From NCBI RefSeq assembly GCF_018977255.1, contig NW_024704743.1, positions 15,812,001 through 15,876,000 of the forward strand: a DNA stretch of 64,000 bases. The letters run 5' to 3'. The notes under the pieces are model-generated. The model saw only the letters and a list, made by a program, of their open reading frames with translations, searched no databases and was not told the DNA's origin. Every line of letters begins with the position of its first letter. Position 1 is the stretch's first letter. This stretch comes from Callorhinchus milii (Eukaryota). Positions 9,730 through 59,472 of this stretch are shown piece after piece. A program made the position numbers and the translations under genes.

Positions 9730-10620
9730 TTTTCAGCTTGGCTCAGTTTGTGGCATTCTCACCTCGAGGGCAGAAGATTGTGGATTGAAGCCTCTCATCT
9801 GGGCTTTGAATTTATAGTTTAGGGTGCTGCTCCGGTGAATGCTGCCGAGGATTGCACTGTCAGTAGCATTGTCTTTCAGATGACATATTAAACCAAGGCC
9901 CTGCCTAATTGATCAGAAAGGTGTTAAAATCCCATTACACTCTTCAGAAAGAGAAGGGAGGTTTTCCTGGTGACCAGTCACTGGGGGCAGGAAGTCATCC
10001 CACTCAGCTCCTGTTAACCCTGCAAGCCAAATTCCTGACGGGTAGGGCGGTCCTAGCTGGACAAGGAGCGGAAAAGCTTGCCAGCCAGCGATTTCAATGG
10101 CAAGCTATGTGGTTTTAGCTGGTTAGACTCCAGCAGTATCCCAATGACACTCTGGGGTCCCCCAAGCCTTGGTTCTTGCTAACCTTGCCTATTACTTTCT
10201 GGAATAAGGCAGACAGGATGTTTCCCTCCAATCTATCTTGGTATGGAACAAGATAGATCCCCTTATCCCTACCTCTCCTACCCCATCCTCCCTTCTCCCT
10301 CACTCCCCGCCCTTGTTTGCCAAAATCCCCTGACTGTCTAGTGCCCTGGGATGTCTTTCCATTGTGAAGGGCACTATACAAGTGTTATTTGTTCTTGTTG
10401 TTTCTCCCTGAAGCGCTTTGAGATGTCGCGATAAGGGGCTATATCAAATGCAAGGATTATTGTTATCATTATCTCTGGAATTTCCATGTGTAGGTGGACG
10501 GCAATTAATTACCTCATTTGCTGTGTGCAAATGGCCACCACATTATTCTCTTGATTATGTACCTTGAGATGACTCAATGACATGATAAGGCACTATATCA
10601 AATGCAAGAATTATTATTTT
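9730..10620 (+). mobile_element. Deu-domain SINE interrupted by repeat X, an L2 3' end and a SINE tail
   Basis: Deu core at 9730-9975; the tail resumes at ~10500-10620. Confidence 0.65.
9983..10500 (+). repeat. Unclassified structured repeat X, copy 1 (interrupted ~10240-10470)
   Basis: Aligns by eye with the copies at 20670, 32066, 56481, 57215 and 59231. Confidence 0.8.
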
Positions 10621-10714
10621 TATAACTTTTTTTTAAGACAGCACCTGGTTGTGAATTTAATGTAGTAAAATCACATACTCATTGCAAGCCTTCACACTTA
10701 GTGCATGGTAGTGC

Positions 10715-10766
10715 TTTATTCCATTTCAACAAGAAATCTACATTTAGGAGTGCTGAGGTATTTATT
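10715..10766 (-). promoter_or_regulatory. Candidate SUGCT polyadenylation signals (two AATAAA)
   Basis: tttatt on + at 10761-10766 and 10715-10720, ~190-240 nt past the stop codon in non-repetitive 3' UTR-like sequence. Confidence 0.55.
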
Positions 10767-10958
10767 ATTGTATATCTTTAGGGGTTTAATTTGTAATTCA
10801 TTGCGTTGAGACTAACAGTGTTCTAGTGATCTGCCTTGCAACAGTCTGGAAAGAAATTTACCTTGATTCATTTCTGCAATTATAAAAGGCCTTGTCTGAA
10901 CTGTGAACGTGATTGATCTCAGAAAGGTCAAAACTGCTTGTGTAAGAGAGATTAGCCT

Positions 10959-11122
10959 TTAGTGCAGTTCATGCTGGGTGACTGCTCCCGCTGTGAGCAG
11001 TTCATTGATATAGCTCTCGCTGTAACCCAGCACGGTCTTCAGCACCTCCACTGTGTGCTGCCCGATCAGAGGTGGGGGCTCCGGCCTTGAGACCTTGAAG
11101 TCACTGAATCGGACAGCGGGAC
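10959..11122 (-). CDS. SUGCT: SUGCT terminal coding exon (C-terminus of succinyl-CoA:glutarate CoA-transferase)
   Basis: Minus strand ...ttattccacag|GT CCC GCT GTC... translates (G)PAVRFSDFKVSRPEPPPLIGQHTVEVLKTVLGYSESYINELLTAGAVTQHELH*. This closely resembles the human SUGCT/C7orf10 C-terminus as I recall it (GPAVRYSKFKMSEARPPPLLGQHT...ELLSAGVVDQHETH*). AG acceptor at 11123-11124, TAA at 10959-10961, phase matches the upstream exon. Confidence 0.93.
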
Positions 11123-11397
11123 CTGTGGAATAAGGAAGAGTTAAATATTACTTTTGTGAAATATACCCAACTTTTCTCTATTAACCCTTGAAATAGCTGC
11201 AAGAAGTTAACACTAGCATTTCTCTTAGGAGGTTGCGTTCACTCTCAGAACCCTGTGGATTTAGAAATATTCAAATGCAAGGATTACATTGTACACTGTA
11301 TCGTTTACATATCTCTCTAACTGTTCTAAAATTATTTGGAATCAGAAATGTAAAGAATATTCTATTGCGATATATGGAACACATGTTCACCCATGTA

Positions 11398-11880
11398 ATA
11401 ATAATTATGATAATCCTTGCATTTGATATATTGCCTTACCACTTATCACAAAGCGCTTCACAGGATATGCTGTAAATTGGTGTGACTGTGTTTTTTTTTG
11501 GGGGGGCAAATGTGGCAATTAATTTGCACACAACAAACTGTCCCACAAACAGCCATGAGTGAATGACAAATTTTATTTGATTGTTGGCCAGGACACCAGG
11601 AAAAACTCCCTTCTATTTTTGAATAGTCCCATGGGATCGCTAATGTCCACCTGGACAGGAAGCCGGGACTCTGATTAATGTCAACAACAACTTGCATTTA
11701 TGTAGCGTCCCAGAGCGCTTATACAAAGCACGGGAACTCCCAACAATGCAGCACACCCCCAGCATTGGAGCTGAGCACGTGGAGCTTAGACTATATGATT
11801 CCAAGTCCCGATGTGGGGCTTGAACCCACAACCTTTTGATTCAGAGGGAAGAGCGCTACCTATTGAATCAGCCTGGCATG
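11398..11880 (-). mobile_element. Deu-domain SINE
   Basis: Reverse complement of the Deu core (ggccaggacaccagg, gtcccatgggatc, gtccacctg); tRNA-like head near 11820-11875. Confidence 0.8.
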
Positions 11881-57214: not shown

Positions 57215-57366
57215 TTTTTTTTTCGTCAGCAGGGTATCTGACACATGCAGAAATCCATCGCCATGCTTAAGAGCATCCAAACCAAGCTGAAATTTCCATG
57301 TGTCCCACCTACACATGGAAATCTCAGAGATAGATTGTCGGAATGGAATGCACACTCTCTCTCTGG
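57215..57366 (-). repeat. Unclassified structured repeat X, copy 5 (3' 150 bp, A-tail)
   Basis: T9 run then gtcagcagggtatctgacacatgc...; inserted in the CR1, possible TSD gtctt. Confidence 0.82.
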
Positions 57367-57689
57367 TCTTTACATCGAAGGTGGAGTGAAATAATTTGCC
57401 ACAAACCGTGGCTGAAGCAGAGACCATCAATTCTTTTAAAAGGGAATTAGAATTGTCAAAAAGAATAAACAATATGGGGAGCGAGCACAAGATTAGACTG
57501 GGACTATGCTGCACGGCTCATTTGGTGAAATCCACCAGTGTAGATTTGATGGGTCGAATGGCTAGTTTCTGTACTGTACCATTCTATGACCTGAAGTGCT
57601 GTAATTTGAATGTTTATATTGGGATTCACTACACTTTGTGACAAATGCATATTTCATAGGAGAGGAGGGAATAGTCTGCCCCCATTGAT

Positions 57690-58255
57690 TCACCTCACAA
57701 GTGAGATTGGGTTTGATTCCCAACAAGGTGAAACGGTGGGCAAATTTCCTTACTCCACACGCCACTATTTACCTAGCAGTAAGTAGAAATCTGGGTGTTA
57801 TTCGATTGGCGGATCACTTTTCCGGGGGTAATAATTCCTTAAAAATAAATAAAAATAATTTGCTGGACATAAAATAGGTTCTGAATTGTCTATGGGTCAT
57901 GTAGATCAGATGAGATAATAATAATCCTTGCATTTAATATAGCGCCTTATCACGTCGTTAAGATGTGTCAAAGCGCTTCACAGAATATACTGTAAAGTGG
58001 AACAGCCAATTGCACACAGCAGTGTCCCAAAAGCAGTCATCGATTGAGTGACCAAACTTTTTTTTAAGGCATTATTACCTTCAGAAATTATTACCCGCAT
58101 CCGCCAATCGACTAATAACTGGGTTCCTACTTACTGCTAGGTAAACAGAGGCATGTGGAGTAAGGCAACTTGCCCAACGTTTTGCCCTGTTGGGAATTGA
58201 ATCCGGGTCCTCTCGCTTGCGAGGCGAATGCTCTAACCAATATGCTACAGAACGC
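57690..58255. mobile_element. Two long-subfamily SINEs tail to tail (57690-57860 +, 57915-58255 -)
   Basis: Both match the SINE head and central block. Confidence 0.85.
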
Positions 58256-58598
58256 CATCTTAGATTACATCAGGAAATGAAAGAGGAAACGTGTAAGGCT
58301 TATTAAATACTTTTAGAAATTCCAAAAAATCCTAGCTGTACGCAAGGACTGGGCGATGGTGAATGGAGTATTGAAAGAAGAGGCCACACAAATCAGGAAT
58401 TATAAACCAGTTTGTCCAACTTCAGTAATGGAAAAATGCTCACGAGCATTATAGGAAATGCTATCATCACTCATCTCAAGAAAATATAAGACTCAAGGGG
58501 AAATCAGCATGGTTTAAGAAGGTTGCAGCTCATAAATCTACTGGATTTCTTTCAGGCAAATAACCTTGTGGATGTGGGCTATCCAATGGTATAATATA

Positions 58599-58710
58599 CG
58601 GGGTGACCAAAAAATCATGGCATCTACCCTACTATCTAAAAAAATCATAATTTCTTTAAGACTTATTCTTATTAGACGTTGTAATGGTATCACGACTTTT
58701 AGTCATCCTG
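58599..58710. mobile_element. Tc1/mariner-type MITE (112 bp) with TA target duplication
   Basis: TA|CGGGGTGACCAAAAAATCATG ... CACGACTTTTAGTCATCCTG|TA, splitting a CR1 VDV.YLDF.. remnant. Confidence 0.65.
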
Positions 58711-59230
58711 TACTTGGAGCTTTCAGCAGCCGTTTGATGAAATTTGAATCCGAGTCTTTCAAAGAATATATAAAGGTACTTGGGATGAATGCCAAATTGA
58801 CAAATCGAAATGACTAGACCATAGGAAGCAAGCGATCGTGATAAATGGATAAAACATTCACTCTTGCCTCTGGGTCAGAATGTTGGAGGTTCGAGCCTCA
58901 TGAGAGGACTACTACTCCTAATCTAGGTTGACTAGTGCAGGTCTTAGAATTCACTGCATTGTTGGAGTGCAGTCAAACTGAGGTTCCCGATGCATTCGTT
59001 TTAGGAACAGCGAGGAACTCCTCCATTTTTCAGACCAATATTGCTCTCTTGTCCAAATTCATCTCATTGTGGTTTGTAGAATGTTTCTAGTCCAGTTGTG
59101 CTGCTGCTGCTCCCTATATAACCTGCCAATAAACCTCAAAATAAACTCTTTGTGAAAGGAAGTTGGATAAGTGTATCTGTTCAGGTGGACGTTAAAGATC
59201 CTGTGAAACTTTTCGAAACTAGTTCCCTGG

Positions 59231-59472
59231 CCCAATGCACACTCTGGGGTCCTCAAGCTTTGGATCTTGCCTACCTATGCCTAATACTCTCAGGAATTAG
59301 GTAATTAGCAGGATGTGTCCCTCCAGGGAGAGAGAGCGCATTCCATTCCAACAAATATCTCTAGAATTTCTATGTATAGGTGGGTTGCATGGAATTCTCA
59401 GTTTGGTTTGGATACTCTTAAGCGTGGTGATGCTTTACGGTATGTGTCACACGCCCGTCTGACCAAAATAAA
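59231..59472 (+). repeat. Unclassified structured repeat X, copy 6 (3' half)
   Basis: actctggggtcctcaagc...tatgtgtcacacgcccgtctgaccaaaataaa. Confidence 0.82.

What the first reader, a model, noticed from the sequence alone, without database searches (positions are those of the whole stretch)
9983..59472. Unclassified hairpin-rich, A-tailed non-coding repeat (repeat X), six copies in 64 kb
Seen: homologous segments at ~9983-10500, 20670-21000, 32066-32320, 56470-56862, 57215-57366 (minus) and 59231-59472. Four copies share the same 3' end (...CATGTGTCAG-N8-CTGAC + A-run) and have variable 5' ends, the pattern of target-primed retrotransposition. I see no tRNA A/B boxes, no ORF, no TIRs, and neither the L2 nor the CR1 tail used by other elements here. 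It is a chain of stems: GTCC/GGAC; AGCTTGCCA/TGGCAAGCT (10075-10106, stem retained at ~32106-32135 while the loop differs); CCTAAT/ATTAGG; a perfect 12-bp ATTTCCATGTGT/ACACATGGAAAT (57292-57322); and terminal GTCAG/CTGAC. Inference: a non-autonomous structured-RNA retroelement (retrozyme-like), the 3' UTR of a LINE clade I do not recognise, or retrocopies of an unknown ncRNA.
Basis: partly seen in the sequence, partly recalled or inferred. Interest (0 to 1): 0.7.

Follow-up and report, generated by a model that had tools for sequence, protein, structure and literature searches.

The report
Old LINE tails with tRNA-like hairpin
The six repeats are real, decayed copies of a very abundant A-tailed element in a chimaera-type fish genome; they are likely the cut-short, non-coding tail of a LINE jumping gene rather than a new mobile RNA, and their one odd feature is a small internal hairpin predicted to resemble a tRNA arm.

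Summary
Observation largely confirmed: six copies, 64-79% alike, no seventh. Four keep the hairpin-plus-A 3' end and all six 5' ends differ. Public contigs show a high-copy family: 18,881 contigs of one run lie on copy 1, and four species labels hold it with near-identical majority letters. It runs at least 30 nt further 5' than any copy here, so all six are truncated. The read-majority version folds modestly better than shuffles (z -3.0 sense, -1.2 antisense), but the copies show no covariation. No ribozyme, Rfam or protein match. 'No A/B boxes' is only partly right: an internal T-arm-like hairpin (10118-10134) follows an A-box-like motif (post hoc, 8 of 5000 shuffles), but a T4 run and a broken B box argue against a Pol III SINE. 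Best reading (0.65): 5'-truncated 3' UTRs of an old LINE. The parent could not be reached here. The scan has noted what appears to be this family many times in the same genome; some notes tie it to an atypical RTEX-like LINE (untested here). Dfam and Repbase were not searchable. Mostly ordinary.

The parts
9972..10232 (+). Copy 1, 5' part (reaches furthest 5' in the window, still truncated)
10054..10065 (+). A-box-like motif, one mismatch to the recalled consensus; common by chance alone (3505 of 5000 shuffles)
10075..10106 (+). 9-bp stem with 14-nt loop; equals the family majority in the stem
10113..10116 (+). T4 run, present in all 4 copies covering it; a possible Pol III stop directly before the T-arm-like hairpin
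10118..10134 (+). T-arm-like hairpin: 5-bp stem, 7-nt loop TTAGACT (A where tRNA has C56)
10233..10467 (+). Later insert into copy 1: L2-type tail (10267-10402) plus SINE-type tail (10409-10467); not part of X
10468..10497 (+). Copy 1, resumed piece; 3' end lost
9733..9971 (+). Older Deu-type SINE (SacSINE1-CM-like) hosting copy 1; its tail resumes near 10519-10620
20670..21003 (+). Copy 2, 5'-truncated, internal deletion over the T-arm-like hairpin, 3' end and A-run kept
32066..32328 (+). Copy 3, most diverged, both ends lost, abuts the tail of a SINE at 31829-32064
56491..56862 (+). Copy 4, 5'-truncated, 3' end kept, weak 7-9 bp duplication
57216..57366 (-). Copy 5, last ~150 nt; long stem 57292-57322, terminal 5-bp/8-nt hairpin 57225-57242, A8 tail
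59231..59470 (+). Copy 6, last ~240 nt; 5' side abuts a Deu-domain fragment

Best explanation
Repeat X is a high-copy, decayed, A-tailed family whose six copies here all lack the family's 5' part, and it is likely the structured 3' untranslated tail of an old LINE retrotransposon, pasted back as 5'-truncated copies. Shown: fixed 3' hairpin plus A-run, six different 5' ends, family sequence continuing upstream of the longest copy, high copy number, a master that folds modestly well on the sense strand, decay without covariation, and later insertions into a copy. Inferred from established LINE biology: a Pol II transcript of the full element was bound in cis by its own endonuclease/reverse transcriptase, probably through the terminal stem-loop and A tail. 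Reverse transcription was primed at a genomic nick and usually stopped after 150-450 nt, perhaps more often near the hairpin cluster (4 of 6 5' ends lie within about 56 nt just upstream of it). The copies have decayed neutrally since. The parent's clade (RTEX-like, in other agents' notes) is a lead only.
For: Fixed 3' end and ragged 5' ends. 732 contigs of X1 (of 18,881 laid), 304 of X16, 219 of X15 and 27 of X22 run on 5' of 9972 with a near-identical 30-letter majority (agreement 0.62-0.71), so 0 of 6 copies is complete. By contrast, 11 of 47 hits to a model of the window's tRNA-SINE reach its head (the denominator includes shared tails of another SINE, and the contrast is not significant). 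A T4 run lies inside the sense strand and there is no intact B box, which fits Pol II better than Pol III. A terminal stem-loop is a recurring feature of stringent-type LINE 3' ends, and an A tail does not exclude that type (PMC3747384 passages). The sense fold beats the antisense fold (z -2.96 vs -1.19); there are 11 stems of 5 bp or more vs 5.5 expected, reached by 11 of 500 shuffles. 151 of 262 differences from the six-copy majority are transitions. Mixed C>T and G>A letters at 10039/40, 10069/70 and 10089/90 mark CpG decay. The longest open sense frame of copy 1 has no protein relative, as expected of a UTR.
Against: No copy in the window joins coding sequence. The RVT_1 hits (4 of 211 ORFs) lie in L2- or CR1-type pieces away from X (clade by recalled motifs), so the link to a LINE ORF was not shown here. 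Loose ends show only 30 letters, so the true 5' end is unseen. That 30-letter stretch itself holds an A-box-like motif (by eye), and other agents report 5' ends clustering near 575-620 nt or a ~450-nt unit. Either would fit a discrete short element. Target-site duplications are weak. There is no AATAAA signal.
Confidence: 0.65

Rival explanations
1. A discrete headless non-autonomous element of about 450-600 nt (bipartite 5'+3' LINE derivative, Pol II), mobilised in trans by a partner LINE that shares its tail.
For: Very high copy number for a short non-coding unit. Other agents report clustered 5' ends. Such elements are described for RTE, Ingi, Vingi and R2 (PMC5786205 section 23).
Against: 0 of 6 copies here share a 5' end or reach the family's known upstream part. 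No 5' ribozyme match in the part seen. Unchecked notes report X joined to a LINE ORF.
Confidence: 0.17
2. A tRNA-derived SINE (Pol III) whose head or internal tRNA-like part went unrecognised.
For: T-arm-like hairpin with an A-box-like motif 64 nt upstream (8 of 5000 shuffles, post hoc). The same 17-mer lies within ARAGORN-called tRNAs in 2 of 14 viral loci and looks like a T arm in several more. A second A-box-like motif lies in the upstream loose end.
Against: At least 110 nt of family sequence precede the internal motif. The majority of many thousand copies has A at the C56 position, so this is not decay. T4 lies directly before the hairpin. ARAGORN tRNAs in the window, none in X; Rfam's tRNA model does not hit copies 1 or 2 even at E 10. 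The upstream motif is not the head of the window's tRNA-Ala SINE.
Confidence: 0.12
3. Retrocopies of an unknown cellular structured RNA, made by a relaxed LINE enzyme.
For: Sense-strand folding of the majority version; A tail.
Against: No Rfam match; no covariation among six copies; tens of thousands of copies would be extreme for a passive template (inference).
Confidence: 0.04
4. A retrozyme-like or ribozyme-headed element.
For: By eye, the stretch from 9983 resembles the first helix of HDV-like ribozymes (recalled), and copy 4 starts there.
Against: The family runs on upstream of that point. No hammerhead core on either strand. No ribozyme family in Rfam at E up to 10. No LTR-like repeats. 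Local fold z there is +1.3.
Confidence: 0.02

Closest known systems
5'-truncated insertions of stringent-type LINEs with a 3' stem-loop (L2/CR1 tails; A-tailed examples SART1 and plant L1; PMC3747384 passages)
   Same: Fixed 3' end with a 5-bp terminal hairpin, ragged 5' ends, non-coding.
   Different: No similarity to the window's L2 or CR1 tails; tail at least 430 nt and hairpin-rich; parent not shown here.
Bipartite non-autonomous RTE/Vingi/Ingi/R2 derivatives (PMC5786205)
   Same: Short, non-coding, no working small-RNA head, high copy.
   Different: No defined 5' end or 5' ribozyme seen; no sequence match tested, because the supplement could not be read.
CmiSINEs and SacSINE1-CM of Callorhinchus milii (PMC5499810, parts 1-2 of 6 read)
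   Same: Likely the same kind of genome, similar age (12.6-22.4% divergence there), interleaved with X.
   Different: They have a tRNA head, a CORE or Deu body and an L2 tail; X shares none of these.
RTEX-like single-ORF endonuclease-RT-CCHC LINE noted by other agents in this genome (e1-9087923, e1-9229316)
   Same: Reported to end in 'family X' and to carry a tRNA-arm-like fold; a T-arm-like hairpin is confirmed here.
   Different: Neither identity with this repeat nor the clade could be tested; the notes are unchecked.

Membership tests
LINE 3' tail (non-LTR retrotransposon) | Fixed A-tailed 3' end with variable 5' truncation | tested here: met
   4 of 6 copies keep the 3' end; six different 5' ends
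LINE 3' tail (non-LTR retrotransposon) | Target-site duplication | tested here: inconclusive
   7-9 bp with a mismatch in 3 of 4 testable copies, none in the fourth
LINE 3' tail (non-LTR retrotransposon) | Continuity with an RT-encoding ORF upstream | not testable with these tools
   No genome held; loose ends limited to 30 letters; no adjacent RT in the window
RTEX clade | RT phylogeny and domain order | not testable with these tools
   No parent protein in this window; lead from notes only
SINE2/tRNA | tRNA-derived head at the 5' end | tested here: inconclusive
   No ARAGORN or Rfam tRNA call on X; true 5' end unseen; A-box-like motif in the loose end
SINE2/tRNA | Intact B box and no internal Pol III terminator | tested here: not met
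   No exact B box, A at the C56 position in the majority, internal T4
CmiSINE / SacSINE1-CM | tRNA-Ala head, CORE or Deu domain, L2 tail | tested here: not met
   No similarity to the window's copies of these SINEs outside nested inserts
Bipartite non-autonomous LINE | Defined 5' end taken from the parent's 5' UTR | not testable with these tools
   5' end and parent unseen
Retrozyme / Penelope pLTR | Hammerhead ribozyme core | tested here: not met
   No CTGANGA on either strand of the 401 nt seen; no Rfam hit
Retrozyme / Penelope pLTR | LTR-like direct repeats or tandem copies | tested here: not met
   All six copies are solitary
Conserved ncRNA family | Covariation above background | tested here: inconclusive
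   2 of 52 pairs with a double change, shuffles 2.1; only six decayed paralogues
Named Dfam/Repbase family | Full-length match to a consensus | not testable with these tools
   Libraries not held; five motifs absent from searchable papers

The most novel reading that the evidence does not exclude
X is the 3' UTR of an undescribed RTEX-like LINE lineage, otherwise known from fungi and algae, and it carries a conserved tRNA-mimic module (D-arm-like stem, long stem, T-loop hairpin). That module would serve the element's RNA, for stability, processing or recognition by its enzyme, and would also stall reverse transcription. This would explain the tens of thousands of SINE-sized stubs made without any Pol III promoter.
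Probability: 0.15. Interest if true: 0.65.

Novelty: new member of a known kind. Interest (0 to 1): 0.27.

Why it matters
If it is a LINE tail, it is an abundant repeat (roughly 90 per Mb in this window) that chimaera repeat libraries should name, and little more. It would matter more if the tRNA-arm-like hairpin were conserved in distant relatives of the parent LINE. Two paper searches (listings only) showed no description of a tRNA mimic in a LINE 3' UTR, and it would give a testable handle on how LINE enzymes recognise their RNA and why 5' truncations cluster.

Tried and rejected
Whole genome: none held. Rfam: gathering scan of the window gave only 5 SINE-head tRNA hits; E-value scans of copies 4-6, 1 and 2 gave chance-level hits only; copy 3 was scanned at gathering only. 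The idea that the upstream loose end is the 3' arm of the window's tRNA-Ala SINE head was rejected. An HDV-like ribozyme at 9983 was rejected: the family continues upstream and no model matches. DNA pattern scans: metagenomes 0 hits in 2 scans; viral contigs 0 and 14, none resembling X beyond the 17-mer (the 'about 12 expected' there rests on my assumed library size). The protein search with copy 1's 48-aa open frame gave one spurious hit to a repetitive bacterial-type protein. RNAalifold on the gappy alignment predicted 0 pairs, which is uninformative. The six-copy majority folded no better than shuffles (z -1.0); single copies gave z -0.06, -2.07, -0.74 and -3.25 (4 of 6 folded). Expression: no RNA holder listed. 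Runs guessed to be RNA hold many X contigs, but contigs cannot show a discrete or circular RNA. Sequence look-ups in earlier findings returned nothing. Supplements of PMC5499810 and PMC5786205 could not be read and may hold relevant consensus sequences. The ten repeat consensus sequences of PMC1845163, one 'of unknown identity', could not be compared.
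Full report
Setting. The window is vertebrate-type repeat-rich DNA. It holds tRNA-Ala-headed SINEs, Deu-type SINEs, and L2- and CR1-type fragments (clades by recalled motifs). This fits the CmiSINE and SacSINE1-CM families described for the elephant shark (PMC5499810, parts 1-2 of 6 read), and earlier notes call the genome elephant-shark-like.

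Observation. Six copies are real and no seventh is found. They are 64-79% alike in pairs. Copies 2, 4, 5 and 6 keep the 3' end. Copies 1 and 3 have lost it. Copy 1 sits inside an older Deu-type SINE and is itself split by an L2-type plus SINE-type tail, so X was active after that SINE copy and before those inserts. The perfect 12-bp stem is particular to copy 5; the majority has two G-U pairs there, and both states are what decay of a CpG would give (inference). Target-site duplications are weak.

Family size and extent. Laid at 80% likeness, 15,363 (X1), 3,830 (X5), 9,798 (X8) and 7,146 (X13) contigs fall on 56380-57460, almost all on copies 4 and 5. On copy 1 the counts are 18,881 (X1), 5,021 (X16), 3,796 (X15) and 235 (X22). 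Contigs are not loci, but the family is plainly of the order of 10^4-10^5 copies. Four species labels (A-D) hold it with near-identical majority letters. 8 run-lays used 7 of the 24 listed runs. In all four runs the commonest loose end before 9972 is a near-identical 30-letter stretch (732, 304, 219 and 27 contigs), so the family is at least 430 nt long and 0 of 6 window copies is complete. What lies further upstream could not be seen.

Structure. Single copies fold inconsistently (z -0.06 to -3.25, 4 of 6 folded), and the six-copy majority folds no better than shuffles (z -1.0). A version corrected with read-majority letters does better: z -2.96 sense (0 of 100 shuffles), -1.19 antisense (8 of 100). 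It has 11 Watson-Crick stems of 5 bp or more against 5.5 expected (11 of 500 shuffles); for stems of 6 bp or more the excess is not significant (46 of 500). With pairing span limited to 60 nt the strand difference nearly vanishes (-2.3 vs -2.08). So the source RNA was modestly structured. Across copies 85% of 196 cells pair, but only 2 of 52 pairs show a double change, as in shuffles. This is inheritance plus decay, with no sign of selection on the copies, though the test is weak.

The tRNA-like hairpin. Prompted by note e1-9229316, I found a 5-bp stem with a 7-nt T-loop-like loop at 10118-10134, 64 nt after an A-box-like motif. A 4-bp D-arm-like stem and the 9-bp stem lie between them (by eye, from the majority letters). 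Shuffles give such a hairpin in 44 of 5000 and the pair in 8 of 5000 (pattern chosen after seeing the sequence). It pairs in 15 of 15 cells in the three copies that keep it, with one double change; copy 2 has deleted it. The same 17-mer lies in ARAGORN-called tRNAs in 2 of 14 viral loci. However, Rfam's tRNA model does not hit X, the majority has A at the C56 position, a T4 run precedes the hairpin, and at least 110 nt of family sequence lie upstream. It is therefore more likely an RNA fold inside a Pol II transcript than a promoter.

Coding. None of 211 open frames of 70 aa or more links X to a domain; RVT_1 hits (4 of 211) lie elsewhere, and two further hits were below cut-off. Copy 1's 48-aa open frame found 1 spurious hit among 1.84 billion proteins.

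Mechanism. The best reading is 5'-truncated 3' UTRs of an old LINE inserted by target-primed reverse transcription (0.65). The shown and inferred steps are separated in Best explanation. Rivals are a discrete bipartite element (0.17), an unrecognised SINE (0.12), ncRNA retrocopies (0.04) and a retrozyme (0.02).

What is known. Papers seen: PMC5786205 (part 1 of 5, passages, section 23); PMC3747384, PMC4350176, PMC1845163, PMC12952989 and PMC5753468 (passages only); otherwise search listings. None of what I saw names this family, and five motifs occur in no searchable paper. Dfam and Repbase could not be searched, so it may well be catalogued; PMC1845163 deposited one repeat 'of unknown identity'. 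The scan's own notes describe what appears to be this family in more than ten windows of the same genome, mostly as a LINE tail, some with a link to an atypical RTEX-like LINE. These are unchecked leads; I could not compare sequences with them.

Verdict. Real, abundant, old, and probably ordinary LINE debris, with one modest oddity worth a covariation test. Interest 0.27.

Noticed in passing
window 10231-10258: Perfect 10-bp inverted repeat at the junction of copy 1 with its nested insert; looks like a short inverted piece of X made during the insertion or deletion.
   Followed up: no
window 56461-56480 (approx.): 8-bp perfect hairpin in the flank just before copy 4; its left arm resembles the bases after the A tail (possible target duplication plus an inverted templated filler).
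   Followed up: partly
window 52415-52476 and 55795-55856: Two 87%-alike short repeats that recall (from memory) the end of shark Penelope-like elements on the minus strand.
   Followed up: no
window 16287-16398 and 17324-17451: Inverted pair, 78% alike, about 1 kb apart, matching no other repeat in the window.
   Followed up: no
table 8 (run X22 records 25 and 26; X15 record 11): Deep contigs from runs guessed to be RNA extend about 2.7 kb, 0.3 kb and 0.8 kb upstream of X's 5' part; they could be host transcripts or the parent LINE, but their letters were not readable.
   Followed up: no
upstream loose ends: Three variant sites in the 5'-most part would all be synonymous in one sense frame that stops near 10024; a faint hint that the parent's ORF ends there. 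Three sites only.
   Followed up: partly
window 9974-9984, 10155-10165 region and following: Several 11-nt odd palindromes (5+1+5) in the X majority sequence.
   Followed up: no
L001, L007, L011, L013, L008, L010, L014 around 1501-1517: Viral-contig sequences that look like tRNAs with an A56 T loop but are not called by ARAGORN.
   Followed up: no
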